Positions 94 through 28,779 of a DNA stretch of 64,000 bases are shown piece by piece. Source of the DNA: a virus; the IMG/VR virus record IMGVR_UViG_3300008886_000001, positions 4,181-68,180 of that record, one strand, 5' to 3'. The notes beneath the pieces were generated by a model, which did not search any database, had not been told where the DNA came from, and saw nothing but the letters and a program-made list of their open reading frames with translations. Every line of letters starts with the position of its first letter. Positions within the stretch are counted from its first letter, which is position 1. Made by a program: the position numbers and the translations under genes.

Positions 94-109
94 GTGTCCC
101 GAAGAAACT
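94..109 (+). promoter_or_regulatory. Putative late promoter GTGTCC-N4-GAAACT, leaderless (ATG 6 nt downstream)
   Basis: Same motif and spacing at 7 virion/packaging gene starts; no SD before ATG 116. Confidence 0.6.
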
Positions 110-115
110 TCGGGC

Positions 116-3100
116 ATGGGACGCAACACCACTTCCACCGCCGCTCCCGCGGACGGCGACGATCCGAAGAAAAAGAAGAATCTTCGCGCCAAAATCGCGG
201 GCCGGAGCCCCACGATTGGGTACCACCCGACCGGGTACGGGTGGTGGGGTTACGGCGCTGCGGCCCTCGACGGCGCGCCGATTTTTACGTGGATCGACAT
301 CCCGCGGATGTTGCGCGATCCGCAGGTGCGGTTCATCGAGCGGTTGTGGCGGGCGCCGTTCCAGAAGGTGAAGTGGACGGTCAAGGCGACCGACAAACGT
401 GTCGCGAACTTCGTTTCCAACACGCTGCGCCGGTTCTGGCGCCAGTCCCTCCCGCGACTCCTCTCGAAATACTGGCGGTTCGGTTTCGCGGCGGGCGGCG
501 CCGAGTTCATCCCGCACCGGGGCCGGCACCGGCTGAACACGGTCCGCGCGCTCGAGTGCCGCGACGTGCAACCGCGCGTGTGGGCGAACGGGGAGCGCCG
601 CGGGGCGTTCGCCGGGTTCACGCTCCGTTCGGCCGAGAGCTCCGAACCGATCTGGGTGGGCGAGCCGCACGCGATGTGGTTCGCGGGCTATCAGGAGTTG
701 GGCGAGTTCTACGATTCGGCCCCGCTCGGGGGCCTCTTCGAGCCGTGGCTCGAGAAGCGGGGCCGCAACGGTGCGGTCCACGCCCGACGGCTCTGGTTCC
801 GCAAGGGGGCCTGGCGCGGCAAGAAGATTTACTACCCGCCAGGGAAGACGAACGTCGGACCGGACGAATCGCCCGTCGAGCGCGACAACCAGGACATCGC
901 GCGCGAGTTGCTCGACTACGCCGAAGCGGGCGGAACATACGCGTTCGAGAACGTGGCCAATGCGGGCATGGAGGGCAAATACGATTGGGACATGGAGGAC
1001 GACGCCCCGCAGGCCGATATCGCGGGGTTCCGCGAGTACCCGCGCGATCTGGACATGGAAATGCTCGACGGGGCCGGCATCCCCCGCGAAGTGGTCCAGT
1101 CGTCGGAATCGGGCAGCGGGTACAACGGCCGGCTCCTCCCCTACCAGGGCTTCCTCGGGACGGTGGACGAACTGTCGGGCCTGATCGTCAACGCCTGTGA
1201 GCCCTGGCTCCGGGGCGCCGTGACGATCAATTTCGGGGCCTCGGTGTGGTACGAGATCCAGCTCCAGTCGCTCGAAGAACAGGCCGAGCAGGAGAACCTC
1301 CAGAACCAGAAGCGGTCGGGTGATCTGCCCGCTGCGGCGGCGAAGGGGATGGGGGCCAAACCGTTCCAGGCCAAGGGCACGAGCGCGGGCGGGGACATCC
1401 CGTTCGATCTCTCGACCACCGATTCGGAACTGCCGGTTCTCCGGACGCTCCTCAACCTCAATGCCAAGGTCGATCACCTCCTCTTCGGTAAGCCGCTCGA
1501 ACTGGCCGCCACGACGACGCCCGACGACGATCCGGGCGTTAAGCAAGCGGCGTTCCAGCAGGTGAACAAGAAGCTGATGCGGTCGCGCAAGTCCACGATC
1601 GCGCAGCTCCTCGCCCTGGCGATGATCCGCACCCAGCAGCGCGCGACGGCCGCGGGTAAACCCGAGGCCGCAGCGGGGAGCCTGGAGGCCCTCGCGAACC
1701 TGGCCGGCGACCCCGTGCAGGTGGCGCAGATCGTCGGGATGAAGGAACTGTCGGCCCTCGAACTGTCCTGGGAGCCGTTCACCGGCGCGAAGGGCGGTCA
1801 GGGCTGGTACAACACGGAAACCAACGAGAAGCGGTACCAGAAGACCAAGCCGGGCGAGCGGAAGGAGAAACAAGAGGCCAGCGAAAAGGCCGGGCTGGAG
1901 ATCATCGCCAAGGTCGCCAAGCGGCGCGCGACCCCGGAGGAGGTGGCCGAACTCGCCACTCACCTGCCGGTGATGCGGGGCCGGGAGCTGGTGAAGGCCC
2001 GCGCGGTGCTGGAGGCCAACCTCCGGGGTGAGCGGCAGAAGACGTTCATGGTCCAGCGGCTCCTCGACCACGTCGCGCGGTCGAAGGAGATCCGGGCGGC
2101 GGTCCCGAAGGAACTCAAGCTCCCCGACGAGGCGGCGGCCAAGAGCCGCGCCGCGAAGAAGTCGAAACTCGCCGGGACGGTCGCACAGTCGGTGATCGAC
2201 TTCGGCGGCATCGATCCCGACGATCACGCCTTCAGGACGGTTTACGGCAGCGTGAAGGAGGCGGTGCAGGATGGCGTGCCCCTCGCCGCGTTCCGCGACT
2301 CGAAGGGCCGGCGCGGGCACAGCGGACTCGACGCGCTGGCGGGCGAACTGCACCACTCCGGCCACATCCGGATTCCCGCCGGGAAGAGGCCGGAAGAGTT
2401 CGTGCTGGACCTGCTCAAAAAGGGAGCGAAGGCCCACGGCGAAGAGAGCGCGGCCGAACAGGACAAGAAGTACGAGGAGTACCTCAAGAACCGACACGGC
2501 CCGCAGGCCGACGAGAAGAAAACCACACCGGAACCGAAACTCAACAGCAAGGGGTACCCCGCCGATTGGGACGAACCCGCGGAAGTAAAAGGCGGCGCCG
2601 AACCCGCACCGGCCACCGAGTCGGCACGTACCGAAGAACCGCCCCCCGCGCCGGTGGCCAAGGAGATCGCGAAGGAAGTCGCCAAGCCCGCTCCGGCCAA
2701 GAAGCGGCCGAAGAACACTCCCGTTCACGTTGCCGAGACCGAGGCGAACGCACTCAAGGCTGCGGTGGCCTACAACGCCGTCGTCGAGGCGACCCGGGAC
2801 GGCGCCAGCCCCGAACAGGTGAAGAAACTCCACGACCGCGCCGCTGCGGCTGCGGACGGGGTGCCCGAGGACAAGCGGGGGCAGTTCCTCGCCCACCTCA
2901 CGAACGCGGCGGCCGGGAAGGGGAAACTTCTCCCGATCCCGAAGGCCCACGAGTCCGAACTCGAGGATGTGCAGCCGGACGAAGAACTGCCACCGGTCGA
3001 GGCCGCACCGGTTCCCGCGGCGACACGCGATGACGACGACGAAACGACCGAGGAACCGGTCGAAAAATCCACCCTGGAAATCAAAGCGGACGCGGCCCGG

Positions 3101-4300
3101 CGCGAGTGGCTCGGCGCCGTGGCGAAGAAGAAGCCCGCGGCGACGATCGCCCGGCTGAAGAAGCGGTCTGACGATCTCAAAACGGCCCTCAGTGGAACCG
3201 CCAAGTCGGCGGTCGCCGGCCTCCTCGACGACCCCGAAACTCAAGCTCTCCTGGCCAAACGGCGGGCGGCCAAATCGGTCGCACCGGCACCCGTTGCAGA
3301 ACCAGCCTCGAATGGCCCTCCCGCGCAAGCGACGGAACCGGAGGCGGCCAAACCCCAGTCGCCACCCAAACGGGAGCCGAAGAAGCCACCGAAAGAGAAG
3401 GCCGCGCCAAAACCCAAAGTGCCGAAGAAGGCCCCGTCGCTCGAACAAGCCGAGAGCGATCCCCACGCGGACCGGAACTACCTGGCTGCGGTCACCGCGC
3501 AGTACCCGGAAGATTCGGACGCGCGCGATTATCTCGACGCGGCGCTACACAACCTGCTCGAACCCGATGCCGACGAAAAGGCCGGTTCGGGAACGCGGCG
3601 GCGCGACACGCTTGACAACCTCGGCGCGCAGTGGCGCGCCGCGTTCAGGGCCGGCAAGGGCGAGGCCGCGGACTCGCTGGCGAAGGTGATCCACTCGTTC
3701 GGCGGCAAACTGAAGGGAGACCCCCGGAAGGTCACGCAGTTCGACGGGCGCCTGTTCGACGGACCGACCGGCGTTTTCACAAACGATCCCGTGGTGGTCG
3801 AACGCCCGGCGGTGGTGCTCACCGACCCAAAAACGGGGCACGAGTACGTTGCGGCGAAGGGCGCCGTGCGGAAAGCGTCGCTGGCAAAACCCGCGCCCGA
3901 AGTGGCCCCGGCTCCTTCCGCGCCACCGAGCGCGGGGTCGGACGAGGATCTCGACGCGGCGGCGGCCCGCGTGGAGGACGAAGCCCGGAAGGACCGCGGG
4001 TGGCGACAGTCGGGCGCGTACCGGATTGCCCTCCTCCGGGGCGAACTGAACAAGACCGGGGACCGCGCGCGGCACCTGGACCTGAACGGGATCGCGGACG
4101 CCCTGCGGAACTACGCCACGACGGAGAAGAACCTGGCCGATCCGGTCGGCGCGACCGTGGACCGGTTGGCCCGCGCGCTGACCGCCCGCATGTCGCCCGA
4201 ACAGAAGGGCGAACTGGTCAAAATTTACCGGCAACTGAACCGGTACAACGAGGACGGGTTCGCCCCGAGTGTCCGCGCGATCGAGCCGCCGGGGGACTGA
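116..4300 (+). CDS. Portal protein (DUF935/Mu gp29-like, about aa 1-430) fused to a long Lys/Ala/Pro-rich C-terminal cargo region
   Basis: N-terminal pattern IPRMLRDPQV...YYPPG...TINFG resembles DUF935 portals; remaining ~960 aa low-complexity with embedded globular segments. Confidence 0.7.
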   Translation: MGRNTTSTAAPADGDDPKKKKNLRAKIAGRSPTIGYHPTGYGWWGYGAAALDGAPIFTWIDIPRMLRDPQVRFIERLWRAPFQKVKWTVKATDKRVANFVSNTLRRFWRQSLPRLLSKYWRFGFAAGGAEFIPHRGRHRLNTVRALECRDVQPRVWANGERRGAFAGFTLRSAESSEPIWVGEPHAMWFAGYQELGEFYDSAPLGGLFEPWLEKRGRNGAVHARRLWFRKGAWRGKKIYYPPGKTNVGPDESPVERDNQDIARELLDYAEAGGTYAFENVANAGMEGKYDWDMEDDAPQADIAGFREYPRDLDMEMLDGAGIPREVVQSSESGSGYNGRLLPYQGFLGTVDELSGLIVNACEPWLRGAVTINFGASVWYEIQLQSLEEQAEQENLQNQKRSGDLPAAAAKGMGAKPFQAKGTSAGGDIPFDLSTTDSELPVLRTLLNLNAKVDHLLFGKPLELAATTTPDDDPGVKQAAFQQVNKKLMRSRKSTIAQLLALAMIRTQQRATAAGKPEAAAGSLEALANLAGDPVQVAQIVGMKELSALELSWEPFTGAKGGQGWYNTETNEKRYQKTKPGERKEKQEASEKAGLEIIAKVAKRRATPEEVAELATHLPVMRGRELVKARAVLEANLRGERQKTFMVQRLLDHVARSKEIRAAVPKELKLPDEAAAKSRAAKKSKLAGTVAQSVIDFGGIDPDDHAFRTVYGSVKEAVQDGVPLAAFRDSKGRRGHSGLDALAGELHHSGHIRIPAGKRPEEFVLDLLKKGAKAHGEESAAEQDKKYEEYLKNRHGPQADEKKTTPEPKLNSKGYPADWDEPAEVKGGAEPAPATESARTEEPPPAPVAKEIAKEVAKPAPAKKRPKNTPVHVAETEANALKAAVAYNAVVEATRDGASPEQVKKLHDRAAAAADGVPEDKRGQFLAHLTNAAAGKGKLLPIPKAHESELEDVQPDEELPPVEAAPVPAATRDDDDETTEEPVEKSTLEIKADAARREWLGAVAKKKPAATIARLKKRSDDLKTALSGTAKSAVAGLLDDPETQALLAKRRAAKSVAPAPVAEPASNGPPAQATEPEAAKPQSPPKREPKKPPKEKAAPKPKVPKKAPSLEQAESDPHADRNYLAAVTAQYPEDSDARDYLDAALHNLLEPDADEKAGSGTRRRDTLDNLGAQWRAAFRAGKGEAADSLAKVIHSFGGKLKGDPRKVTQFDGRLFDGPTGVFTNDPVVVERPAVVLTDPKTGHEYVAAKGAVRKASLAKPAPEVAPAPSAPPSAGSDEDLDAAAARVEDEARKDRGWRQSGAYRIALLRGELNKTGDRARHLDLNGIADALRNYATTEKNLADPVGATVDRLARALTARMSPEQKGELVKIYRQLNRYNEDGFAPSVRAIEPPGD

Positions 4301-4310
4301 GATCCGGCGG

Positions 4311-4325
4311 TGTCCGCCCTAATTT
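4311..4325 (+). promoter_or_regulatory. Putative late promoter TGTCC-N4-TAATTT, leaderless
   Basis: ATG 4332 is 6 nt after the -10-like hexamer; matches motif at 94-109. Confidence 0.6.
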
Positions 4326-4331
4326 CGGGGC

Positions 4332-6440
4332 ATGGCGACGTTCATCAACGGCACCGTTCCCTGCGCCGATCCCGCGACCCTGTACGCGGAATGTGTGGCG
4401 CAGGGGCTCCCCACGGAGCGGTGGAGGGGGAAGGGCAACTCGTTTCGTGTCGCCCCGGGCCGGGACCCGGGGCGCGGCTGGTTCTTGATGACATACGCCA
4501 ACCTGTTTGGCGACGGCACCTCCGCGAACCCCGGCCTCAACGCCGCCACGGACCTCGCTTTCACGTTCTCCGGCGAGGACGCCGACCACCTCCTGACCCT
4601 GTCCCCCGTCACTCTCTTAAACAGCGAGTGCGTCACTCCCGGTTCGGACTCGGACCCGAACTCGGTCTACCTGTGCGAGGTGGTGGACCGCCGGCACCAC
4701 CTCGAGCGCATCCCGTTCCCGGCGACGGACAACGGGTACCTGTCGTACAACCTGTCCACCGCGGACGGTTCGGCGTTCTTCTCGGCGTCGCTCAACGGCG
4801 GCAGCTCGCAGTGGACCTGGCAGGGCGTGGTGAACGATCTCGTCACCCAACTCGGCTTGAGCACGGCGCAGTTCACGCTGCCCTTCGCGCCGACGGGCAA
4901 CCCGGAGAACCTCGTGTTCAACGAGGACGGGCCGTGGGCGGCGCTGTGCGACGTGTGCGACCGCCTGGGCTGCGTGGTCGCCGCCTATCCGGTGAAGGAT
5001 ACGTTCGCGATCGTGCAACTCGGCGCGGCGAAGGACGGCCCGCTGAACGCGATCACGGACGACCGGATCTGGGACGGGTACCCGTCCGAAGAGGTGCGCG
5101 GCTGGCGCCCGGAGAAGGTGCGGGTGCGGTTCCCGCGCCGGCCCGTCGATACGTGGAACAACGGGAACTCGCCGTTTTACATCGTCGATGTGACCCTCCC
5201 GACGACGAGCGGGGTGGTTACCGGGACCGTCGTCCAACTCGACGACGGGTTCACCGCGCAGGGCGCGACCGGGACCCCGACCAACGCCTCCACGCTCGCG
5301 ACGATCGCCACCGAGCGGGCGAACAACTGGCTGCAAAAGCGACAGTTCTACGAACGGCCCGCGCTGCGGGTCTGGCGCGACTTCCAGACCGCCTGGCAAA
5401 CCGTCCTCGCTTATTCGGTGAACCGGGTCGTGCTCGACGATACCGGTGGCCTGATGCAAACGGTCGCAACCGCCGGGCCGGATCTGAAGCTGGAAAAGTG
5501 GAAGCCGCTGGGTCGCTGGCCGGTGTGGTGGCCGTTCGCGGCGAGTACATCGCCTCCACCCCCGCCACCACCTTCGGTCTGTAGCGGAGCCGAATGGCTC
5601 GCGGCACTCACCAAGAATGATTGCCTCGAAGTGAGCCTGAACGGCACCGATGCAGGATTCGCCCTTACGTCGAGTGACGGAACCACCTGGACGAGCCCCA
5701 CGCGCGAGACGTTGACGATCTGCGGCCACACGTATCTGCTCACGCTGACGCTCTCGGCGTGCGGGGTGCCGTGCTTGACACTGACCGGGGTGGGGAGCGG
5801 GTCCGCCAACTACACGGGCACGTTCGGCTGCGCCGCGTGCAACTACCTCGTCTTCGGGTTCCCCACGGTGTCGCTCTGCGGCAGCACCCCGGTCGCCGGC
5901 GGCCCGTGCAACAATCTCACCAAGATCCGCCTCGACTGGCTCTCCTGCACGCCGGACACGACCTGTACCGGGTTCAATTCCGTGACTGGTGCGATATCGT
6001 CGAACGTGTTCACGAACCTCCCGGTACCGGGGTACATCATCGCGGCGACGCCGGGCAGCAGCGCGGCACTGAACGCCGGGTTCGAGTTCATGTGGAACCA
6101 GAACGGCGGCGCCGCGTGGCTCCAGATGTCGAACATGTCGGGCAGTTTCTCCGCGACCAGTCCGGCCGGGTGCGGCCCCTACGGAAATATCCCGGTCAAC
6201 ATCGGGTGCTACACGAACACCGGTTCGCACCTCTACATCGAGTACGCCCCGGCGTACCTGTACGACTGTTCCGGATGCATCGGGTCGGGGGGCGCGCAGA
6301 TACTGCCGTTCTACACGAGCGCGTCCCCGTACACCGCAGCGTTCATGATCCCGTCTTCGTGGGTCGCCGCCGGCATTCCGTGTCACTCTGGCGGCGCGTC
6401 CGCCGAGATGTGCATTATCGTCTTCAACTACCAGGGCTGA
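4332..6440 (+). CDS. Putative virion (tail-associated) protein, Thr/Ser/Gly-rich, poly-Pro linker and Cys-rich C-terminus
   Basis: 702 aa ORF, composition typical of virion proteins, carries late-promoter motif; no family recognised. Confidence 0.5.
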   Translation: MATFINGTVPCADPATLYAECVAQGLPTERWRGKGNSFRVAPGRDPGRGWFLMTYANLFGDGTSANPGLNAATDLAFTFSGEDADHLLTLSPVTLLNSECVTPGSDSDPNSVYLCEVVDRRHHLERIPFPATDNGYLSYNLSTADGSAFFSASLNGGSSQWTWQGVVNDLVTQLGLSTAQFTLPFAPTGNPENLVFNEDGPWAALCDVCDRLGCVVAAYPVKDTFAIVQLGAAKDGPLNAITDDRIWDGYPSEEVRGWRPEKVRVRFPRRPVDTWNNGNSPFYIVDVTLPTTSGVVTGTVVQLDDGFTAQGATGTPTNASTLATIATERANNWLQKRQFYERPALRVWRDFQTAWQTVLAYSVNRVVLDDTGGLMQTVATAGPDLKLEKWKPLGRWPVWWPFAASTSPPPPPPPSVCSGAEWLAALTKNDCLEVSLNGTDAGFALTSSDGTTWTSPTRETLTICGHTYLLTLTLSACGVPCLTLTGVGSGSANYTGTFGCAACNYLVFGFPTVSLCGSTPVAGGPCNNLTKIRLDWLSCTPDTTCTGFNSVTGAISSNVFTNLPVPGYIIAATPGSSAALNAGFEFMWNQNGGAAWLQMSNMSGSFSATSPAGCGPYGNIPVNIGCYTNTGSHLYIEYAPAYLYDCSGCIGSGGAQILPFYTSASPYTAAFMIPSSWVAAGIPCHSGGASAEMCIIVFNYQG

Positions 6441-8223: not shown

Positions 8224-8237
8224 CTCGGGGCGCAGAG

Positions 8238-8266
8238 TTGCGTTGACCCCCAAATCTCGCTATCCT
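8238..8266 (+). promoter_or_regulatory. Sigma70-like promoter for the moron gene
   Basis: TTGCGT-17 nt-TATCCT upstream of 8353. Confidence 0.4.
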
Positions 8267-9018: not shown

Positions 9019-9040
9019 CGCCCTCGTAGAGCGTCTCTCG

Positions 9041-9979: not shown

Positions 9980-9989
9980 ACGGCCCCCT

Positions 9990-14625: not shown

Positions 14626-14627
14626 CG

Positions 14628-15125
14628 CTACCTCACGTCCGGAGCTGTCTCGTCGATGACTCGCTTGTACCCATCGGCGATGCCCGTGCTGCGGCTGGTA
14701 TCGACCCCCACCTGATCGTTGATCTTGCGCAGATCGACGTGGTAGTTGGTCGTGACGACCGCGCGCCGGGTGGCCGGGAGCCGGAGCTTGGCCTTCCCGG
14801 TGCGGACCTTCTCGAGGAGCTTCTCCCGCCGCTTGCACTCCGCGTCCACCCCGGCCGGCAGGTCGTTCAACCGGTGCAGGCACCACCACCGGACCGCGAA
14901 CCACGTCGCCGACTGTGCCACGTACTCGTCCGTCGCACAGTTCGCCTGGGTGTACCGGATCAGGTACACGTCCGCGTCGGACGTGCCGGCGTTGATCGCG
15001 AGCGTCATGAAATCGCCGGTGGTGTCCGTTTCGTCGTCGTCACGTAACGAGAGCCCCAGCGTGCCGATCAGATCGGTTACGCGGGCGCTCGTGGTGTACG
15101 GGATCGCGACGGACGGGATCGCCAT
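14628..15125 (-). CDS. Head-tail connector (Mu gp36/DUF1320-like)
   Basis: Y.T...V.D...AINAGTSDADVYL.RY...KRREKLLEKVRTGKAKL pattern; ends in TAG. Confidence 0.65.
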   Translation of the reverse strand: MAIPSVAIPYTTSARVTDLIGTLGLSLRDDDETDTTGDFMTLAINAGTSDADVYLIRYTQANCATDEYVAQSATWFAVRWWCLHRLNDLPAGVDAECKRREKLLEKVRTGKAKLRLPATRRAVVTTNYHVDLRKINDQVGVDTSRSTGIADGYKRVIDETAPDVR

Positions 15126-15132
15126 GTCTGGA

Positions 15133-15148
15133 AGTGTGACCGGGACAC
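15133..15148 (-). promoter_or_regulatory. Putative late promoter GTGTCC-N4-CACACT, leaderless
   Basis: ATG 15125 is 7 nt downstream; motif shared with six other starts. Confidence 0.55.
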
Positions 15149-15164
15149 GGGACAGCTCGCAGTA

Positions 15165-16970: not shown

Positions 16971-16973
16971 CGC

Positions 16974-17324: not shown

Positions 17325-17342
17325 GTGGGTTCTCGGTGTTGG

Positions 17343-17705: not shown

Positions 17706-17770
17706 GACGGCCTCGGCGGGTGCGGCCCGCTCTCCTCCGGGTGCTCGCCGCTCCGGCTCATCGGCTGCGG

Positions 17771-18880: not shown

Positions 18881-18938
18881 CGCTGGCTCCCGGCGGACTC
18901 GGGTCTCAAGTTGTGCGTAACAAGGTGCGGTGCGGCGA

Positions 18939-19544: not shown

Positions 19545-19604
19545 TCGACTGTCCTCAACGGTCCGTGCCCTGGGTCCGGTTCGACACAATTAACCAAACA
19601 ATTA

Positions 19605-20705: not shown

Positions 20706-20800
20706 CTGTCTGCTCCGAAGGTGGGTCGCGCTGCGGTCGGGTGTGCGGAACGGAACCGGGGCCGAGCCCGCTCCATAGGGAGCGGGCGGTCACGCACGCA

Positions 20801-21514: not shown

Positions 21515-21573
21515 GTTTCAGCCCTCAAATCGCGGGTACTCGGTGCGGGGTCTCGCGCGGTCGGAAGCGGCGG

Positions 21574-22905
21574 TTACTTGGGGCACACCTTGTCGGGGTG
21601 GTCGCCGCGGCCCAGGAGCCAATCGCTCGTAGCGCTGGCCCGCTTGTCGTTCGGCTGATCTTTCTGTTCGGGGGGCTCGATCGGGTTCGTCGTGGACAGG
21701 TCAACCGGCTTGGCCGGGGCCTTTGCGTTCCAGGCCGAGTTGGCGGCCTTCTTCTCGGCCGCAGCCACGTCCCCAACGAGCTTCTTCCACTTCTTCCCGG
21801 TCGGCTCGCCGTCGGTGAACGACATCTCGACCGCTTCCGCCTGGCGCAGGAGCTTCCGCTGCGTCGGGCCGTCGATCCGGCCGGTGGCGAACGCGCCCTT
21901 GATCCGCTTGCCGAGTTCGGTCCGCTCGACCGCAGCCTCTTTGATCGCCTTCTTCCGCTTCACCGGGTCGGTGTCGGTGGTGGACATGAGCATCGGCGGC
22001 CCACCCGGCGCCGCGGTCGTTTCCCCGTCGTCCGTGTCGTCTTCCGGTTCGGGGGTCTCGTCGGGCGGCGGGGTCTCTTCCTCCGGACCGGCCGAGGACT
22101 CGACGGCGATGACCAGCTCCTTGAGGTTGCACACCTTGTCGCTGATGGTCATGCCCTTGGCCTTGAGGGCGTCGATCAGTTCCTTCAGGTCTTCGGGGCA
22201 CTTGCCCTTGCCCTCGCCGTCACCCTTCGGCTTCTCTTCGGTTTTCTTCTCTTCGGGCACGGGTGATTCCTCCGGCGCGTCGGTGGTACTCAGCTCGACC
22301 GAGCGATCGAGCTCGTTGAGCCAGTCGCTGAAGGACCAATTGAAGGGGGGACACGATTCGTCCGGATCGGCGCCTTCGAGGTGCTCGCCGTCGGGTAGCG
22401 CGAACGAGAGGAACACCGCATCGTCGGCGCTGAGATCCGCAAACGGTTTCTGCCAGAATTGGACCGGGGTCGGCGTGGCCGCGACGTGTGCGACGGTGGT
22501 ACCGTCGTAGGTGCCGCCCTGCGAGTCCCAATACCCGTGCCGGTACACTTTCGGGCTGACGAACTTGACCCGCTTGAGTTGTTCGGCCTCTTCGGGCGTG
22601 TGTACCGGCAGCAGCATGTCGAGGTTGCCGCGCTCGTTGATGCGCGAGTCGGCCGCGTGCGCGAACGTGTACCGGGCGTACCGGCGCTTCCACTCGGCGA
22701 CCGCGTCGGCCCCTGCGGGCGCGTCAGCGGCCTCGATCTTTTGGTGTTCCCATACCGCTGGCAGTGGAACCCCGCGCGCTCTCATGCGCTGGAAGTTCTT
22801 GTGCGCGCGGCGGATGTTCTGCGGCTTGAATTCGAACCACTCGCCGTCTTTCGACTGCTGGCGGCCGACGCAGAGCACTTCTTTCCAGACCGGGATGGGT
22901 GGCAT
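21574..22905 (-). CDS. Prohead protease/scaffold (Mu gpI-like)
   Basis: LPAVWEHQ...KFVSP...HVAATPTP N-terminal domain plus charged scaffold C-terminus. Confidence 0.7.
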   Translation of the reverse strand: MPPIPVWKEVLCVGRQQSKDGEWFEFKPQNIRRAHKNFQRMRARGVPLPAVWEHQKIEAADAPAGADAVAEWKRRYARYTFAHAADSRINERGNLDMLLPVHTPEEAEQLKRVKFVSPKVYRHGYWDSQGGTYDGTTVAHVAATPTPVQFWQKPFADLSADDAVFLSFALPDGEHLEGADPDESCPPFNWSFSDWLNELDRSVELSTTDAPEESPVPEEKKTEEKPKGDGEGKGKCPEDLKELIDALKAKGMTISDKVCNLKELVIAVESSAGPEEETPPPDETPEPEDDTDDGETTAAPGGPPMLMSTTDTDPVKRKKAIKEAAVERTELGKRIKGAFATGRIDGPTQRKLLRQAEAVEMSFTDGEPTGKKWKKLVGDVAAAEKKAANSAWNAKAPAKPVDLSTTNPIEPPEQKDQPNDKRASATSDWLLGRGDHPDKVCPK

Positions 22906-22911
22906 GTCCCG

Positions 22912-22964
22912 ATTGAAAAGGGGACACTATTTTGGATTTGATCTACGCATGTCCCGCCTACCCT
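22912..22964. promoter_or_regulatory. Divergent pair of putative late promoters (minus: GTGTCC-N4-TTCAAT at 22927-22912; plus: TGTCC-N4-TACCCT at 22950-22964)
   Basis: Back-to-back copies of the motif in the 86-bp divergent gap. Confidence 0.6.
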
Positions 22965-22991
22965 CGTGACCTACCTCACGAGGGCGCGGAA

Positions 22992-24233
22992 ATGGCTCTG
23001 AAACAGTGGAACGGACAGGCTTCGACCGTCTCCCAAGTGGACACCGTGATCATCGGTTCGAACACGACCGGGCAGACGTTCTCGTACACCGTGAACGGTA
23101 AGACCTACACCTACACCGCGCTGTCGTCGGACACCTCGACCACCATCCTGGCAGCGAGTTTTCAGGTGTTTCTCTCGGCCGTGTCGGAGCCCGAGTTCCA
23201 GGAACTCAAATTCACCCCATCCACGAACACGGTAATCGTTACCGGGCCGGCTGACGGGGCGCCGTTCACGGGCACGGTGGGCGGAACGGGCACGATCAGC
23301 ACCTCGACGACGACCGCGCCGCTCTCGCCGCACGATGTGGGCCGGGCCGCGAACTGGACCGGTGGCGTGCTGCCCACGACCGGCGACACGGTGGTGTTCG
23401 ATCTGGGCTCGACGGACGCGAAATACAACCTCGCCGCACTCGCGGCCGTCGCGATCGGCTCGTTCACCCGTCGCCCCACGTTCACCGGTGTGATCGGGTT
23501 GCCCGACATCAACCCGTTCAACGGCGGGTACGAAGAATACCGACCGACGCACTTCTCCCTCAACACCGCAAACATCCGCGTGGAGCAAGCGGCAACGGAC
23601 CTGGCGAACCAGGTCCGCATCCTCTCGACGCTCACCGGGGCGCCGGTGACGGTGACGGTGGTCGGCCAGAGTGCAATTGGTGCGGGCGGCAGCCAGGGCT
23701 GGCCGTGTGATGTGTACGGCCTACCCAGCGGGCAGGCCAACGTGGTGAACGTGACCAACGGTGCGGTCGCGGTCGCGAACCTGACCGGTCAGACGGCGAC
23801 GGTCGGCACCTTCCGTTCGGCTAGCGGGACGTTCTTGCTCGGATCTGCGGTGACGCTCACGACCGCGACGGTGGTCGGCGGCACGGGCGAGATCGATTGC
23901 GGGTTCACGACGGTGACGCTCGACCAAAGTGCGGTTGTGGTGGTGTCGGAAACGGCCGCGGCGGGAACCGGGGTGACGGCCCAGAACGGCGCCGCGCTCT
24001 CGTGGCAGTCCACCGGCACACCGGGCGCCGTTCTCATCGGTAACAACGCGACGTTCGACTTGTCGAGCTGCCCCGCTCCGGTGGCCGTTGGGACCATCAC
24101 CCGCAACGCGGGGTCCACGCTGAACGACCCGCTGGGCCGGATCACCCGCCCGTACACCGAGGTGTACTCGAACTGCGGCCAGGAATCGTGTACCACGGTG
24201 CGCGGGACAGGCTTCCAGGCCGTGATCAGTTAA
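22992..24233 (+). CDS. Thr/Gly/Val-rich putative virion protein
   Basis: MALKQWNG...AANWTGGVLPTTGDTVVF; divergent from head operon; stop overlaps convergent stop (TTAA). Confidence 0.6.
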   Translation: MALKQWNGQASTVSQVDTVIIGSNTTGQTFSYTVNGKTYTYTALSSDTSTTILAASFQVFLSAVSEPEFQELKFTPSTNTVIVTGPADGAPFTGTVGGTGTISTSTTTAPLSPHDVGRAANWTGGVLPTTGDTVVFDLGSTDAKYNLAALAAVAIGSFTRRPTFTGVIGLPDINPFNGGYEEYRPTHFSLNTANIRVEQAATDLANQVRILSTLTGAPVTVTVVGQSAIGAGGSQGWPCDVYGLPSGQANVVNVTNGAVAVANLTGQTATVGTFRSASGTFLLGSAVTLTTATVVGGTGEIDCGFTTVTLDQSAVVVVSETAAAGTGVTAQNGAALSWQSTGTPGAVLIGNNATFDLSSCPAPVAVGTITRNAGSTLNDPLGRITRPYTEVYSNCGQESCTTVRGTGFQAVIS

Positions 24234-25399
24234 ATTGGCCGTTCTGCTTGCCTCATCAGATCGCGTGCTTTCCGTAATTCGCCTAACCGGTTCCTTAGTG
24301 TGCGTTCGCGGTCCGTACTGAGATCCATCGGGCCAACGTATCTCAGGTATTCCGTCAGTTCACTTTCCGTTAGTTCCAAGGCGCGGTCGAGTTCTTCGCG
24401 GCGCGTTGTCGGCGATGTACTTAGGCTGCCGCTGATCACCACGAAATCGGCGAGTGGCGCTTCATCCATCCATGTCGCGTAGGATTCTCCCGGCGCGGTA
24501 AACTTGATCCCGGGCCACCGGGCCTTCAGGTAACCGAATAGCGAGCAGGCGTCTACGACGTGAGCACGGTGTTTGTGTCTTATGTAATCTATTGGCTCGC
24601 GACTCAGTACCAAATCTTGCTCCGTTAAGGCCGTTTCCACTTCCATCGGGATCGTCACACCGTATGCCGCTGCGTTCCATCTTGATCGCAACTTCACGCC
24701 GTTTTGTTTTTCTCGGACTTGTTCCGATTGATTTATTTGCCCCATACGTATGATGGGACGATCTGTGAGCGTGACGTGTCGAACCGGTTGCTCGGTACGA
24801 ATTCGGTCCGCATACCTGAACCAGTCTTCGGCCGGGCTGGTGACAAATTCTACGAATCCGCGCCGGAACCACGGTAGGTGCGATGTCCATTCGCTGCCGG
24901 CGCGGCATACATCGTGAACGGCACCCATCCACAAGTGCTGACTCGCACTGTTGGCGAGGAACAGTTTCCATGCGCGCTGACGCAGTTCGTTTTCCCTTGG
25001 GTATCCCGTCCAGTTATTTATGATCTGCACTTCAACTGATATCTGACCCGGGCGCGGCCGTTTTGTGTACTCGCCGCTAAAAGACACGATCATCCCGTAA
25101 TGAAACGGGGTTCCGGGTCCCGGCCGGTAGCACACCACACGCCGCATTACTTCGTTGGTCAACAGCTCCGATCGCATCGTAATTTGCTGTACCCCGTCTC
25201 TTGCTACCGGGCCGCCGAGTGGCTGCACGTCACCGATGTCGATCGTGCAGAACTTTTCGTATTCACATTGCACGCGGATAAACTCGGCCCGCTCGCGCTG
25301 TTCGGCACGCTCTTCGAGCCAATCTGCGTACACGAGACGCACGGTGTCGTCGTCCGGGTTGGCGAGGATGTCGGCCAGGAATGTTTGCTCGTCGGTCAT
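24230..25399 (-). CDS. TIGR02996 domain-containing protein
   Basis: [30 protein letters not shown]; FRRGFVE motif. Confidence 0.85.
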   Translation of the reverse strand: MTDEQTFLADILANPDDDTVRLVYADWLEERAEQRERAEFIRVQCEYEKFCTIDIGDVQPLGGPVARDGVQQITMRSELLTNEVMRRVVCYRPGPGTPFHYGMIVSFSGEYTKRPRPGQISVEVQIINNWTGYPRENELRQRAWKLFLANSASQHLWMGAVHDVCRAGSEWTSHLPWFRRGFVEFVTSPAEDWFRYADRIRTEQPVRHVTLTDRPIIRMGQINQSEQVREKQNGVKLRSRWNAAAYGVTIPMEVETALTEQDLVLSREPIDYIRHKHRAHVVDACSLFGYLKARWPGIKFTAPGESYATWMDEAPLADFVVISGSLSTSPTTRREELDRALELTESELTEYLRYVGPMDLSTDRERTLRNRLGELRKARDLMRQAERPI

Positions 25400-25560
25400 G
25401 ACTGATCTCACTTGTCCGGAAACGCAACCGCCCATCCGTCCTGACCCAATTCCGACCACAACGTGCCGAACCCACTGTCGGCCAACTCGACCCGGTCGCC
25501 GATCACCGGCCCCGGATCGTCTTCACCATTGAACTCATACCGAACACGGTGTGGGAACGC

Positions 25561-26070
25561 TCACCGGCCGACCCGCGGCCATTCGGCCCTCAGAAGCCGG
25601 AGTGTTTGTAGCGGCCCGGTTTCGCTCCACGGTGCGACCGCGTGAAACCTGTCTCGTCCGAGTAGACGTAGGTGCTTGTGACGGATCTCGCCAAGGATAC
25701 GCGTCGTTAAGATTACTTCGGGTAGTGGCCGCGACGCTAGGATACTGTCCGATTCCTTCGCCCACCGGTCGAACGCGCACTCTGCGCTGAGTATTAGTCC
25801 CTTGTACGTCGTCCATCTCAACCCCGTCACGCCAGTTGCCACTTTTGCCGAGACGAGCTCGTTCAGATCCGATCGCGTGCCTGTATACGAAATGACCGCG
25901 TCTTTTCCTTCACCGAACGTGAACCGCTTGGGCTTCCGCACCCCGCGTCGGATCGCGTTCCCGAAGCGGACGCGATCGTGTTCCTCCAGCCAATCGGCAA
26001 ACGCGAGCCGTGTGGCATCGTCATCCGGTTCCGCTGCGATGGCTGCGAGGAATGTCTCTTCGTCGATCAC
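25561..26070 (-). CDS. TIGR02996 domain-containing protein (frame stays open 50 codons past TGA to 25408)
   Basis: MIDEETFLAAIAAEPDDDATRLAFADWLEE. Confidence 0.8.
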   Translation of the reverse strand: MIDEETFLAAIAAEPDDDATRLAFADWLEEHDRVRFGNAIRRGVRKPKRFTFGEGKDAVISYTGTRSDLNELVSAKVATGVTGLRWTTYKGLILSAECAFDRWAKESDSILASRPLPEVILTTRILGEIRHKHLRLLGRDRFHAVAPWSETGPLQTLRLLRAEWPRVGR

Positions 26071-26294
26071 GTTGGTACCTCGATCGGCCCGCACCATTCG
26101 CCACCGCTGTTCTCTACGTACCACTCATCATCTGATCCAACCATGAGGTATGATAACGGAGCCACCCCTTTACACTCGATCACCTGTACGCAACTCGTGC
26201 CGCATTTTGGGTGCCGCCACCAGTACCAACCCGGAACGGTCGGTACCAGCACTGTGAAGGTTGTGACCATCCTTGCACTTTCCTTTCCACTCAT
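26067..26294 (-). CDS. Small hypothetical phage protein
   Basis: ATGA overlap with terL stop; PTVPGWYWWR motif. Confidence 0.55.
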   Translation of the reverse strand: MSGKESARMVTTFTVLVPTVPGWYWWRHPKCGTSCVQVIECKGVAPLSYLMVGSDDEWYVENSGGEWCGPIEVPT

Positions 26295-27772
26295 TTTAAC
26301 CCGTCGTACTGTCCGCGCCTTGATTGATAGATGAACGGCGCCGCACCGCTCCCCGCGCCGCCCGTCACCCGCACACTCGGTAGGCACTCGCACGCGTAGC
26401 TGAATGTATCGACAATATCGTCTTGTTCATCGTCAGTTAAACCCGTGAACCTGACGAGTTCGCCGCGCACGTCTTCGAGCGGGAAGAGCGGGTGGTCATC
26501 TGGGAGGAACAACCGTCCCGATGCGGCGAGACTGATCGCGCCGAGCGCCCGGTCCAGTTTGTCCCGACTCTTCGGGTTCACGCTCCGCACGATCATGACC
26601 GGAGCTGTGCTCTTCCGCAAGAATTGTGCGTGCGCCCGCTGGTTCAGCACTTCTTCCACCGCGATGAACTGCGGCTTGTGCTGCCGGTACAACGACTGGC
26701 ATATTCCCAACTGCTCTGGGATCTCCATTTTGTCGCGGTAACAGTCCCACCACACCAGCCGCGCTTCGGGCGTCACCTTCCACGTCGAGACCACGAAGTG
26801 GTCTGCCGCGTTCGAGGCCGACGCTGATGGGTCATACGTCTGGAACGTCGCCGCATTTCGCCACTTGAACCGTTCGAGCACTTCCGCCTTCCCGGTCGGT
26901 CCGAATCCCGTCAACACGCACCAGTCCTTCCATGTCGGGTCTTTGGTCCAGGTGTTCCGTAACCACTCTGCCCGGAACTTTCCGCCCGCAACGGCGTCCC
27001 AATCCCCTTTCTCGCGCTGGGCTCGCGTCAGCGGGTCCAATTTCGCCAGTGCGTTCGTCCGGTACTCCTCGACGTCGAGGTTTCCTTTGTTGTCTTCCAG
27101 CCGGGCCGGAACGAACACCGCGCCCGGCTCGCGTTTCTTCGCGTCCACGAACCGCCTTTTGACCCACTCGTGCCCGCTGTTGCCCGGGTTCGACGTCGAG
27201 CGCATCCGGATCGGCACTTGCGACAACGGTCCCGTCGCTGGGCGCCGCAACCGTCCGAACATGAACTGGTATCGCCACTCCGTGTGCTGCGTGAGTTCGT
27301 CGATTGCGATGAACTGAAACGCCGCCGAGTCGTACTGGTAAACGGCTTTGTCGCTGTCGAGATACCCGAACGTGATTGTTGCGCCGCTCGGAAATGTCCA
27401 TCGCCGGTCCCGCTCGTTCCAGTTCACACCCTTTCCGTACCACCAACTCCGCGACAGATCGATCCACGCCTTCGCCTGATTTAAGTCCGCAAAATTTTCG
27501 CGCAGCAGAAGTGCCGAGTAACCCGGCACGTCCACGTACTGTGCTGCGGCAATTAGCGTTGCATACGTTTTCCCACCGCCCGCAGCCCCGCCGTAAAACA
27601 CCTCCTGCACGTCTGACAGCAACAAGAATTGCCGCTGCTTCGGGTTCTCACTCAACCCACGGTTTCGGGAGTCTTCGGGTATCCACGGATTCTGTTCGAC
27701 GGTCGCCTTGTACGTTGCGACGCGCCATTCCCATGACCTGTATGCCGCCGTTCCACTCGTGATGGCTTCCAT
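26291..27772 (-). CDS. terL: Terminase large subunit (Terminase_6-like)
   Basis: FYGGAAGGGKT Walker A, FIAIDELTQ Walker B, RMRSTSNPG, C-terminal nuclease YDP and DDIVDTFSY. Confidence 0.92.
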   Translation of the reverse strand: MEAITSGTAAYRSWEWRVATYKATVEQNPWIPEDSRNRGLSENPKQRQFLLLSDVQEVFYGGAAGGGKTYATLIAAAQYVDVPGYSALLLRENFADLNQAKAWIDLSRSWWYGKGVNWNERDRRWTFPSGATITFGYLDSDKAVYQYDSAAFQFIAIDELTQHTEWRYQFMFGRLRRPATGPLSQVPIRMRSTSNPGNSGHEWVKRRFVDAKKREPGAVFVPARLEDNKGNLDVEEYRTNALAKLDPLTRAQREKGDWDAVAGGKFRAEWLRNTWTKDPTWKDWCVLTGFGPTGKAEVLERFKWRNAATFQTYDPSASASNAADHFVVSTWKVTPEARLVWWDCYRDKMEIPEQLGICQSLYRQHKPQFIAVEEVLNQRAHAQFLRKSTAPVMIVRSVNPKSRDKLDRALGAISLAASGRLFLPDDHPLFPLEDVRGELVRFTGLTDDEQDDIVDTFSYACECLPSVRVTGGAGSGAAPFIYQSRRGQYDGLK

Positions 27773-27779
27773 TCGTCCG

Positions 27780-27795
27780 AAACTACGTCGGACAC
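27780..27795 (-). promoter_or_regulatory. Putative late promoter GTGTCC-N4-TAGTTT, leaderless
   Basis: ATG 27772 is 7 nt downstream. Confidence 0.6.
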
Positions 27796-28195
27796 CTCGC
27801 GCCCTACCTTCCGCTTCACCCCGTACAACCGGCCCCTTTTTAAACTTGGAAAATCGGATGGGAGACTCCGCCGCCCCTTTCGCCCCTTCTCGCTAAAAAC
27901 GCGCGGCGATCTGCACACTTGGCCACTATCCCCGGATCACTACCCCTGCGGGGCACTCTCTCGCTCCGGCCTGTCTGCATCCGGTTGTTAGCACGCAGTG
28001 TTCGGCCTGGTGTGAGTCTGTGTGGAGGTGGTGCTGATGGGGCGTCGCAACCTGGTGAGTTGGTATTAGCCCGGCTGGCTGCGCTGGTATCGCGCCGGTG
28101 GCGCTCGGCGCGGTCCAGATAGGCATTTGCTGCGCCTGGCCTCCCGATCGCGCCAGGACGCACGCCAGGGGCCAAGGACGGGCATGTGGAGGTTA

Positions 28196-28756
28196 TTACC
28201 TGTCGCTCACTCCGGGCGTTGCGTCGGTGCTGGGGTTCGGTGGTGCTGGTGTGGTGGGCTCTGGCAGAGCTGGTGAGGTCTCTGTCACACTGCCGCGAGC
28301 CGTGGGGAGTTGGCGCACTCCCGCAAGGAGTTCCTTGGCCGCTTCGATGTCCGCCGGCGTGAGTGTCAGGGATGGGGGATTCACGTTCACCGTCACATTG
28401 GCCTCGACCGCCCCTTTCCCGGTCTCGCCGCGGAGCATGGCCGACTTGTCCAGCAGGACGGCACCGGCAATCACAGCGTCCCGGCCGGACATGTCCTTCA
28501 CCTTCCGCTGAGCCTGGGCGAACATCTTCTTCGCCAGGCGGTCCAGGGAGTCCGCCAGCGCAAGTTTCTTTTGTTGGCGGAGTTCGGCGGGGGGAGGGTG
28601 AATGCTCCCATCCTTCCACGCTTGGATTGTGGTTCGGGGGATGCCGGTTGCACGGGCGGTAGCAACCACGTTGCCACCGTTGGCGTCGAGCGCGGCAAGT
28701 GCTTCGGCCTGATCGGCGTCTGAGTACCGACGGTGTTTTCGGCGTGGCGTGTCCAT
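28196..28756 (-). CDS. terS: Terminase small subunit-like HTH protein
   Basis: N-terminal HTH (YSDADQAEALAAL...ATARATGIPRTTIQAW), upstream of terL. Confidence 0.65.
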   Translation of the reverse strand: MDTPRRKHRRYSDADQAEALAALDANGGNVVATARATGIPRTTIQAWKDGSIHPPPAELRQQKKLALADSLDRLAKKMFAQAQRKVKDMSGRDAVIAGAVLLDKSAMLRGETGKGAVEANVTVNVNPPSLTLTPADIEAAKELLAGVRQLPTARGSVTETSPALPEPTTPAPPNPSTDATPGVSDR

Positions 28757-28763
28757 ACCGGCA

Positions 28764-28779
28764 AGTATGGACCGGACAA
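28764..28779 (-). promoter_or_regulatory. Putative late promoter TTGTCC-N4-CATACT, leaderless
   Basis: ATG 28756 is 7 nt downstream. Confidence 0.55.

What the first reader, a model, noticed from the sequence alone, without database searches (positions are those of the whole stretch)
94..28779. Seven-copy TGTCC-N4-(-10) promoter motif giving mostly leaderless transcripts of virion and packaging genes
Seen: TGTCC + 4 nt + hexamer ending in T (GAAACT 104, TAATTT 4320, CACACT 15138, TTCAAT 22917, TACCCT 22959, TAGTTT 27785, CATACT 28769). In six of seven the ATG follows 6-7 nt later with no SD (portal, 4332 gene, gp36, protease, terL, terS). Established: leaderless mRNAs start at the AUG about 6-7 nt after a -10 box; Mu C and P2 Ogr are activators that compensate for missing -35 elements. 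Inference: a late regulon read by an activator or alternative sigma factor binding TGTCC, which would explain how the structural genes work while split into oppositely oriented blocks.
Basis: partly seen in the sequence, partly recalled or inferred. Interest (0 to 1): 0.75.

Follow-up and report, generated by a model that had tools for sequence, protein, structure and literature searches.

The report
Leaderless late promoters of a planctomycete prophage
A short DNA signal (TGTCC, four bases, then a -10-like box) sits six or seven bases before the start codon of every virion and packaging gene block of this Gemmataceae prophage. It is most likely a phage-specific late promoter that makes mRNAs with no leader, a known phage strategy seen here in a new host group and with an unusually placed upstream element.

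Summary
All seven sites exist at the stated coordinates. The composite TGTCC-N9-T-N6/7-ATG occurs 7 times in the window against 0.47 expected, and six of those hits are true gene starts. TGTCC at -22/-21 is the second strongest positional word before gene starts, after the Shine-Dalgarno sequence.

The same architecture stands before orthologous genes (terS, terL, the 443-aa head gene, its divergent neighbour and a 165-aa gene) in about 18 related Gemmataceae phage contigs. The family consensus is g-YGT-n-C-C-N3-(T)AnnnT-CGGgg-ATG, with no conserved -35.

It is phage-specific. In a 7.9-Mb Gemmataceae genome the composite is not enriched, except inside that genome's own related prophage. The leaderless signature itself is barely above control there.

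Best reading (about 0.65): these are -35-less late promoters, made of a -10 box, a G-rich discriminator and an upstream 5-mer at the "Z-element" position. They start transcription at the A of the ATG. Site 5 is the one member with a leader and a Shine-Dalgarno sequence.

The reading factor is not identified. No sigma gene was found. A ribbon-helix-helix-like gene directly upstream of terS is only a weak candidate. No RNA data could test the transcription start sites.

The closest known case is the leaderless late promoters of Thermus phages. This scan has reported similar promoter classes before, on other phage DNA. I file it as a new variant of a known kind, of moderate interest.

The parts
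95..118 (+). Site 1: TGTCC (95-99), N4, GAAACT (104-109), N6, ATG 116. It heads the 1394-aa Mu-type portal fusion gene (116-4300).
   Evidence: The N-terminal 495 aa resemble Portal_Mu clusters (Atlas score 0.96).
4311..4334 (+). Site 2: TGTCC, N4, TAATTT, N6, ATG 4332. It heads the 702-aa gene and is followed by two glycosyltransferase genes.
   Evidence: Mannosyl_trans3 and Glycos_transf_2 hits.
15123..15154 (-). Site 3: tandem TGTCC-cg-TGTCC, N4, CACACT, N7, ATG 15125. It heads the 165-aa gene and the leftward block down to 9041.
   Evidence: Orthologues of the 165-aa gene carry the motif in L003, L002, L005, L018 and L019.
22903..22926 (-). Site 4: TGTCC, N4, TTCAAT, N6, ATG 22905. It heads the 443-aa head gene, the 237-aa gene, the major capsid gene (19605-20705) and the block down to 15165.
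   Evidence: Phage_cap_E hit. The same architecture stands before the orthologue in 18 loci.
22950..22994 (+). Site 5: TGTCC, N4, TACCCT, then a 27-nt leader with a 9-bp inverted repeat and a GAGGG Shine-Dalgarno-like sequence, then ATG 22992 (413-aa virion-type gene). This is the only member with a leader.
   Evidence: Orthologues keep a 24-26-nt leader after a YGT-N6-hexamer. The 413-aa protein matches viral structural clusters.
27770..27794 (-). Site 6: TGTCC, N4, TAGTTT, N7, ATG 27772. It heads terL (26291-27772).
   Evidence: Terminase_6N/6C and phrog_979 hits.
28754..28778 (-). Site 7: TGTCC, N4, CATACT, N7, ATG 28756. It heads the terS-like HTH gene (28196-28756).
   Evidence: The terS of L003/L014, L042 and L040 also starts 6-7 nt after a -10-like box.
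28786..29010 (-). A 74-aa ribbon-helix-helix-like gene that ends 8 nt before the TGTCC of site 7. It is a weak candidate for the factor that reads the motif.
   Evidence: Homologues hold the same position upstream of terS in L002, L014, L040 and L042. The fold assignment is only moderately supported.
57704..58108 (-). A 134-aa protein with a weak excisionase-type HTH, next to the integrase and tRNA region.
   Evidence: HTH_17 at E = 0.011 and TIGR01764 at E = 0.045. Both are below the curated cut-offs.

Best explanation
The seven sites, plus an eighth just outside the window, are the late promoters of this Gemmataceae prophage.

Each promoter lacks a -35 element and has three short parts:
- a 5-mer TGTCC (family-wide YGTnCC) at about -21 to -17;
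- exactly 4 bp downstream, a degenerate sigma-70-type -10 box NANNNT, with A at position 2 and T at position 6;
- then a G-rich discriminator (CGGG).

RNA polymerase carrying the host primary sigma opens the -10 box and starts at the A of the ATG 6-7 nt downstream. The first gene of each late transcription unit is therefore translated from a leaderless mRNA. Downstream genes of the unit use ordinary Shine-Dalgarno sites. Site 5 is the exception, with a leader of about 20 nt and a Shine-Dalgarno-like sequence.

The -10 boxes are weak and there is no -35, so activity should depend on TGTCC. I infer that TGTCC is read by a phage-specified factor bound to or beside RNA polymerase. This would give one on-switch for all late units in both orientations.

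Shown here: the motif, its geometry, its statistics, its conservation and its phage specificity. Inferred: the transcription start at the ATG, the late timing and the existence of a factor.
For: - Statistics: the composite occurs 7 times against 0.47 expected. TGTCC at -22/-21 occurs before 6 of 81 gene starts, p = 9e-9.
- The -10 signature: in the 13 TGTCC sites of this phage and L003, the hexamer ends in T 13 of 13 times and has A at position 2 in 11 of 13. All six close sites use ATG and lack a Shine-Dalgarno sequence.
- Coverage: one site heads every late unit. There are none in the early region 29000-60000. No canonical -35/-10 promoter is found in 14000-30000 (0 against 2.4 expected).
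- Conservation: L003/L014 has six TGTCC sites of identical geometry before terS, terL, the 443-aa orthologue, its divergent neighbour, the 165-aa orthologue and a 621-aa gene.
- In 33 sites from 18 loci, C at position -5 from the hexamer occurs 29 of 33 times although it was not used for selection. G dominates just after the hexamer. No position upstream of the YGT core exceeds 0.3 bits.
- Phage specificity: in a 7.9-Mb Gemmataceae genome, YGT-N6-TANNNT-N6-ATG has 9 hits against 3 in the control, and 3 of the 9 lie inside its 21-kb related prophage. YGTNCC-N3-TANNNT has 41 hits against 62 in the control, again with 3 in the prophage. TANNNT-N6-ATG has 204 against 185.
- Precedent: Thermus phages (Lalka27a; YS40 as cited in that paper) make mostly leaderless transcripts that start 6 nt after TANNNT. 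The Lalka27a late promoters carry one extra conserved upstream base, and an unknown phage factor is proposed to read them (bioRxiv 10.64898/2026.04.20.719267).
- Precedent: a 5-bp spacer element 4 bp upstream of the -10 box (the Z-element) can replace the -35 element (PMC3173786).
Against: - There is no experimental 5' end. The only raw RNA run had no reads on the stretch, and the other runs show flat DNA-like depth.
- The Gemmataceae genome tested barely uses leaderless starts, so efficient leaderless translation in this host is assumed, not shown.
- No regulator or sigma gene was identified.
- Many sites carry inverted symmetry around the hexamer, slightly above shuffled pairings (3.39 against 2.99 bp, p about 0.001). 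A pure promoter model does not need this.
- At site 5 and its close relatives an inverted repeat with compensating changes overlaps the -10 box. This is unexplained if the transcript starts downstream of it.
- Late timing is inferred from gene content only.
Confidence: 0.65

Rival explanations
1. Host RNA polymerase alone reads the sites as -10/Z-type promoters. In this view TGTCC is a spacer element contacted by the beta-prime zipper or sigma domain 3, and no sequence-specific phage activator exists. Timing would come from something else, such as a phage protein that disables -35 recognition (like Thermus phage P23-45 gp39) or repression in the lysogen.
For: - The geometry is exactly that of the Z-element: 5 bp, placed 4 bp upstream of the -10 box, and able to replace -35.
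- The family-wide core YGTnCC is kept across phages of different Gemmataceae hosts.
- No activator gene was found.
- gp39-type specificity switching is documented (PMC3950348, listed).
Against: - The composite is not enriched in a Gemmataceae genome outside its prophage (41 against 62 in the control). The host itself therefore does not seem to use this promoter type.
- The sequence differs from the known Z-elements (AACCT, AACAT).
- Each phage is strikingly uniform in its own variant: TGTCC 7 of 7 here and 6 of 6 in L003, CGTCCCC in L002. This suggests a co-evolving reader.
Confidence: 0.2
2. The element acts in RNA. A stem-loop ending at the AUG on read-through transcripts would serve as a translation control or processing site, and cleavage might generate the AUG 5' end.
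For: - Inverted symmetry flanks the hexamer at many sites, for example TGTCCC...GGGACA at site 4 and CCCGAA...TTCGGG at site 1.
- Sites 2, 3, 6 and 7 lie 11-70 nt after a co-directional gene, so read-through RNA is possible.
- The site 5 inverted repeat shows compensating changes in relatives.
Against: - The invariant T and near-invariant A of the hexamer, and its fixed 6-7 nt distance to the ATG, are what a -10 box needs and not what a loop needs.
- Stems are short (1-6 bp), differ from site to site, and are absent in many relatives.
- The divergent pairs (sites 4 and 5, and site 1 with the eighth site) have no upstream co-directional transcript.
- No Rfam family matches.
Confidence: 0.07
3. 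TGTCC...GGACA is a palindromic operator for a dimeric repressor that sits on the -10 region and keeps late genes off in the lysogen.
For: - Partial dyads are centred on the hexamer at sites 1, 4, 6 and 7.
- Small DNA-binding-like proteins are encoded nearby.
Against: - The right half-site is not conserved.
- The spacing between the halves varies (11-18 nt).
- The dyad is absent in most relatives, while the left half and the hexamer are kept.
Confidence: 0.04
4. The sites are sigma-dependent pause and loading sites for a Q-like antiterminator rather than promoters. They would consist of a binding element next to a -10-like pause box.
For: - A protein-binding element directly upstream of a -10-like hexamer is the layout of lambdoid Q loading sites (my own knowledge).
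- Z-like elements also enhance sigma-dependent pausing.
Against: - There are eight sites in both orientations, two of them back-to-back pairs within 87-220 bp with no room for upstream promoters.
- The fixed distance to the ATG is unexplained by this model.
- No canonical promoters are found upstream.
- No Q-like gene was detected.
Confidence: 0.03

Closest known systems
Leaderless promoters of Thermus phages: Lalka27a (bioRxiv 10.64898/2026.04.20.719267) and phiYS40 as cited there
   Same: - The -10 box is TANNNT and transcription starts 6 nt downstream, at the A or G of the start codon.
- There is no -35 element.
- Many late promoters are spread through the structural region, including divergent pairs.
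- The Lalka27a late class is marked by an extra conserved upstream position, proposed to be read by an unidentified phage factor.
   Different: - There the late -10 box itself is distinctive (TAGGGT) and the extra signal is a single C at -25. Here the -10 box is degenerate and specificity lies in a 5-mer at -21 to -17.
- Thermus hosts use leaderless mRNAs widely (my own knowledge, not tested here). The Gemmataceae genome tested here barely does.
- The Thermus case has mapped transcription starts; this one has none.
Z-element or -10/Z promoters (Yuzenkova et al. 2011, PMC3173786)
   Same: A 5-bp element lies exactly 4 bp upstream of the -10 hexamer (-22 to -18) and can substitute for the -35 element.
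   Different: - The sequence differs: AACCT or AACAT against TGTCC.
- The Z-element is read by the RNA polymerase core and has modest effects.
- Here the element is phage-specific and not enriched in host DNA, so an added factor is more likely.
Activator-dependent late promoters of temperate phages: Mu C, and P2 Ogr with TGT-N12-ACA
   Same: A single small phage regulator turns on several late promoters that have poor or absent -35 elements.
   Different: - Those binding sites are dyads centred at about -35 to -55, not a 5-mer at -19.
- No Mor/C- or Ogr-type gene is present.
Leaderless promoters of Actinomycetota (mycobacterial TANNNT-N6/7-AUG)
   Same: The same -10 geometry and AUG-start mRNAs.
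   Different: That is a host-wide habit with no upstream 5-mer. Here it is a phage-restricted class in a Planctomycetota host.

Membership tests
Leaderless sigma-70-type promoter (-10 box placed to start at the AUG) | A -10 hexamer with A at position 2 and T at position 6 | tested here: met
   T at position 6 in 13 of 13 and A at position 2 in 11 of 13 TGTCC sites of this phage and L003. In the relatives the usual box is TACGCT or TACACT.
Leaderless sigma-70-type promoter (-10 box placed to start at the AUG) | 6-8 nt from the hexamer to the first base of an ATG, with no Shine-Dalgarno sequence | tested here: met
   N6 at three sites and N7 at three sites, all with ATG and none with a Shine-Dalgarno sequence. 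Site 5 is the exception, with a 27-nt leader.
Leaderless sigma-70-type promoter (-10 box placed to start at the AUG) | A mapped primary 5' end at the A of the AUG | not testable with these tools
   The only raw RNA run gave 0 reads on the stretch. The other runs are contigs with flat depth.
-35-less promoter class | No conserved element at about -35 | tested here: met
   No position in the 30 nt upstream of the YGT core (-39 to -10 from the hexamer) exceeds 0.3 bits in 33 aligned sites. No canonical promoter is found in 14000-30000.
Z-element (-10/Z) promoters | A 5-bp element 4 bp upstream of the -10 hexamer | tested here: met
   TGTCC-N4-hexamer at all 7 sites here and all 6 sites in L003. 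The definition is taken from PMC3173786.
Z-element (-10/Z) promoters | A sequence resembling AACCT or AACAT, with dependence on the beta-prime zipper | tested here: not met
   The sequence is TGTCC (family YGTnCC). Zipper dependence cannot be tested here.
Alternative-sigma regulon | A sigma gene in the phage and a distinctive, conserved -10 box | tested here: not met
   There is no Sigma70 or gp55-type hit among about 60 phage proteins in Pfam, PHROGs or NCBIfam. A very divergent sigma cannot be excluded. The hexamers are degenerate.
Mu C / P2 Ogr-type late activation | A dyad activator site at -35 to -55 and a Mor/C or Ogr zinc-finger gene | tested here: not met
   Nothing is conserved upstream of -22. 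No such gene is present.
Ribbon-helix-helix DNA-binding proteins (for the gene at 28786-29010) | A beta-strand followed by two helices, and membership of the RHH sequence family | tested here: inconclusive
   - The protein itself has no Pfam hit.
- 2 of 30 profile-search relatives hit RHH_1 at E = 0.001.
- Atlas features resemble MetJ and RHH_1 at 0.92.
- The AlphaFold model has two confident helices after an extended N-terminal segment (pLDDT 84).
- Foldseek gave no significant PDB match. Ribbon-helix-helix proteins (pCXC100 ParB, NikR) appear only among weak rows.

The most novel reading that the evidence does not exclude
YGTnCC at -21 to -17 is a new kind of promoter-specificity element, read by a so far unknown phage-encoded partner of RNA polymerase. 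The conserved ribbon-helix-helix protein upstream of terS might be that partner. The phage would then switch its whole late programme to leaderless mRNAs in a host phylum (Planctomycetota) that hardly uses them. This would imply phage control of both transcription specificity and translation mode, and would be the first described regulatory circuit of planctomycete phages.
Probability: 0.3. Interest if true: 0.6.

Novelty: new variant of a known kind. Interest (0 to 1): 0.45.

Why it matters
Promoter architecture and phage biology are almost undescribed in Planctomycetota. My literature searches found nothing on leaderless transcripts or phage promoters in this phylum.

If the sites are confirmed, three things follow:
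- They would provide a defined, compact (about 25-bp) and probably inducible promoter set for a phylum that lacks genetic tools.
- They would give a further natural example in which a short spacer element replaces the -35 box.
- They would raise a clear question: how does a phage get leaderless mRNAs translated in a host that rarely makes them?

The finding also adds to a pattern this scan keeps meeting. Unrelated phage families place a private upstream box and a -10 element directly against the start codons of their late operons.

Tried and rejected
- RNA evidence. Two run searches listed no holder on record as RNA for the head-gene stretch. Laying four runs gave 0 reads from the only raw RNA run. 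The others were contigs with flat depth, most likely DNA. No transcription start information was obtained.
- Close relatives by DNA. Megablast against the phage collection found nothing. Single-protein locus searches in viral contigs found 0-1 loci.
- Chance. Rejected.
- ECF-type promoter with YGTC as the -10 box. Rejected because there is no conserved -35 element 16-17 nt upstream.
- Sigma-54. Rejected because there are no GG/GC elements and the hexamer is of the TANNNT type.
- Phage RNA polymerase promoter. Rejected because there is no polymerase gene and only 5-6 conserved bases.
- Host-wide promoter type. Rejected.
- Terminator hairpins upstream of the sites. No consistent pattern.
- A TGT-N7-ACA palindrome. 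It exists where the divergent promoters overlap in L005, L013 and L018, but at only 1 of 7 sites here, so it does not define the motif.
- The ribbon-helix-helix gene as a universal regulator. Its position upstream of terS holds only in the clade with HTH-type terS (this phage, L002, L014, L040, L042). More distant relatives with Terminase_2-type terS still carry the motif but show no such gene there.
- The word-based homologue search for the 74-aa protein found only the protein itself. A PDB profile search found nothing.
- The J-domain idea for the gene after terL was wrong. That gene carries a TIGR02996 domain.
Full report
**What the window is**

The window is bases 4181-68180 of a 72,227-bp virus record with 65% G+C. 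Five observations place it as a prophage of a Gemmataceae (Planctomycetota) host:
- Homologues of its head genes are found in a Gemmataceae isolate genome and in Urbifossiella MAGs.
- Two of its proteins carry the Gemmata hallmark domain TIGR02996.
- A tyrosine integrase (59347-60660) is followed by a tRNA (60759-60832).
- To the right of that tRNA lies a BatA/VWA host-type gene.
- Earlier notes of this scan on the same genome also call it a temperate phage.

The left 29 kb holds the virion and packaging genes:
- a Mu-type portal fusion at 116-4300 (Atlas lead);
- the major capsid protein at 19605-20705 (Phage_cap_E);
- terL at 26291-27772;
- an HTH-type terS at 28196-28756.

TGTCC alone is unremarkable: 119 copies, below expectation. 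The composite TGTCC-N9-T-N6/7-ATG is not: 7 hits against 0.47 expected. Six of these hits are starts of genes of 165-1394 aa. The seventh is antisense inside terL.

I also tested every 5-mer at every offset before 81 independently called gene starts. TGTCC at -22/-21 came out second (6 of 81, p = 9e-9), behind only the Shine-Dalgarno word AGGAG at -11. Most genes of this phage therefore use a Shine-Dalgarno sequence. The first gene of each late block instead has TGTCC-N4-hexamer-N6/7-ATG and no Shine-Dalgarno sequence.

Site 5 keeps TGTCC-N4-TACCCT but has a 27-nt leader with a GAGGG Shine-Dalgarno-like sequence. An eighth copy (TGTCT-N4-TACCTT-N6-ATG) lies just left of the window, back-to-back with site 1.

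Every late transcription unit, in both orientations, begins with a site. The 31-kb early region has no strict site.

**Comparative evidence**

The 443-aa head gene has 72 homologues. From these and from locus searches I obtained about 20 related contigs.

L003/L014 is the nearest usable relative (about 50-70% protein identity). It has six TGTCC sites with identical geometry. They stand before terS, terL, the 443-aa orthologue, its divergent neighbour (again with a leader), the 165-aa orthologue and a 621-aa gene. L004 and L010 also have TGTCC before the orthologue.

More distant relatives keep the architecture but vary the box:
- CGTCCCC in L002;
- CGTTCC or TGTAGC in L005;
- CGTACC in L009, L011 and L008;
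- TGTCG in L042.

I aligned 33 sites on the hexamer. This gives g-YGT-n-C-C-N3-(T)A-n-n-n-T-C-G-G-g-g. C at -5 occurs in 29 of 33 sites and G at +7 in 23 of 33, although neither position was used to select the sites. Nothing above 0.3 bits is seen anywhere further upstream. The class therefore has a -10 box, a G-rich discriminator and an upstream 5-6-mer, but no -35.

**It is a phage signal, not a host one**

I tested the 7.9-Mb genome of Gemmataceae isolate CJuql4, which carries a related prophage.
- The TGTCC version occurs twice.
- YGT-N6-TANNNT-N6-ATG occurs 9 times against 3 in the reversed-pattern control, and 3 of the 9 fall inside the 21-kb prophage.
- YGTNCC-N3-TANNNT occurs 41 times against 62 in the control, again with 3 in the prophage.
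- The bare leaderless signature TANNNT-N6-ATG occurs 204 times against 185.
- In 230 kb of host DNA I found only about 4 plausible leaderless genes among roughly 170 called genes, none with the YGT box.

The host, unlike Thermus or mycobacteria, hardly uses leaderless starts. The phage does so systematically for the heads of its late units.

**Mechanism**

The invariant T, the near-invariant A of the hexamer and the 6-7 nt distance to the ATG are the signature of sigma-70-family -10 recognition with initiation at the A of the AUG (established knowledge of mycobacterial and Thermus promoters). The hexamers are otherwise degenerate and there is no -35. Such promoters should be weak unless something else helps.

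TGTCC lies exactly 4 bp upstream of the hexamer. This is the position of the Z-element, a 5-bp spacer element that can replace the -35 element through the beta-prime zipper (PMC3173786). The sequence differs, however. The element is also not used by host genes and is uniform within each phage. I therefore favour a phage-specified reader (an activator or sigma-appropriation type factor) over recognition by polymerase alone. I keep the latter as the main rival.

G-rich discriminators are known, from my own knowledge of E. coli and Thermus work, to stabilise open complexes at -35-less promoters. This fits the CGGG seen here.

The closest documented case is the Thermus phages Lalka27a and YS40. 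Their transcripts are leaderless and start 6 nt after TANNNT. The Lalka27a late promoters are dense and carry an extra conserved upstream base, and an unknown phage factor is invoked to read them.

**The reader of the motif is not identified**

Pfam, PHROGs and NCBIfam scans of about 60 phage proteins show no sigma, Mor/C, Ogr or Q-like protein.

The 74-aa gene at 28786-29010 ends 8 nt before the TGTCC of site 7. Its sequence pattern resembles a ribbon-helix-helix protein. Support for that fold is moderate:
- Atlas features match MetJ and RHH_1 clusters at 0.92.
- 2 of 30 profile-search relatives hit RHH_1.
- The AlphaFold model is confident and shows two helices after an extended N-terminal segment.
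- Foldseek found no significant PDB match.

Homologues hold the same place, directly upstream of a leaderless-type terS start, in L002, L014, L040 and L042. More distant relatives with another terS type still have the motif but no such gene at that place. I give this candidate only about 0.15-0.2.

**Loose ends**

Many sites have short inverted symmetry around the hexamer, because GTCCC on the left and GGGAC on the right are complementary. Per-site complementarity is only slightly above shuffled pairings, and it is not kept in relatives.

At site 5 a 9-bp inverted repeat overlaps the last four bases of the -10 box and the Shine-Dalgarno-like sequence. L003 and L002 keep it with changed letters. 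A transcript that starts 7 nt after the hexamer would not contain the left arm, so this repeat is unexplained.

In some relatives the two divergent promoters overlap, so that the YGT of one is the complement of the ACR in the other's hexamer.

**Verdict**

The promoter, leaderless-start and late-regulon reading is the best-supported explanation, but it rests on sequence logic and conservation, not on transcription start data. Its alternative-sigma branch and the Mu C and Ogr analogies are not borne out.

This scan has already reported similar late-promoter boxes abutting start codons in other phage families. I therefore file this as a new variant of a known kind. It is notable for the host phylum, for the Z-position of the box and for the contrast with the host's own near-absence of leaderless genes.

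Noticed in passing
window 29091-29171 and 29293-29373; also 29368-29400: An 81-nt direct repeat (90% identical) lies in the 500-nt gap between the ribbon-helix-helix-like gene and the rightward early operon. Each copy carries, on the + strand, TTGCTT-N16-TAGATT (a canonical -35/-10-like pair). A tandem TGCGGTACAA(A/G)TGCG follows. These are probably early promoters or operators, of a different class from the late sites.
   Followed up: partly
window 25561-26124 (-) and 39098-40081 (-): Two phage proteins carry the TIGR02996 'rpt_mate_G_obs' domain, typical of Gemmata proteins (E = 1e-13 and 9e-19). A homologue sits just downstream of terL in at least nine related phage contigs. Its function is unknown.
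   Followed up: partly
window 22959-22991 and orthologous leaders in L003 and L002: An inverted repeat (CCCTCGTGA / TCACGAGGG) overlaps the end of the -10 box and the Shine-Dalgarno-like GAGGG of the 413-aa gene. Relatives keep the pairing with changed letters. It is unexplained under a start 7 nt after the hexamer.
   Followed up: partly
window 40078-40785 (-) and 40961-41569 (-): Two separate J-domain (DnaJ) proteins are encoded in the leftward early operon (E = 1e-22 and 2e-15).
   Followed up: no
window 19100-29000: Near-identical DNA of this stretch is held by 20 or more public runs from 10 or more studies with different organism labels, including plant metagenomes. In two of the runs that were laid (X7, X8), depth over the late region is flat. 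The phage or its host may be a widespread environmental or contaminant organism.
   Followed up: partly
window 60759-60832 (-): A tRNA gene lies directly beyond the integrase (59347-60660). It is the probable attachment site and right end of the prophage. Host-type BatA/VWA genes follow.
   Followed up: no
L003:962-3460 and L014:3863 onward: The terL of the nearest relative is 832 aa, against 493 aa here. Similarity covers only the ends, which suggests an inserted element such as an intein.
   Followed up: no
L005, L013/L016 and L018, in the divergent region before the 443-aa orthologue: The two divergent late promoters overlap on about 17 bp. The YGT box of one strand is the complement of the ACR inside the -10 hexamer of the other, giving a TGT-N7-ACA-like palindrome.
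   Followed up: partly
window 56573-56597 (-) and 24576-24590 (+): Two one-mismatch copies exist (TGTCT-N4-GAGAGT-N5-ATG before the 118-aa early gene, and TGTCT-N4-TAATCT in an intergenic gap). Their significance is unknown.
   Followed up: no
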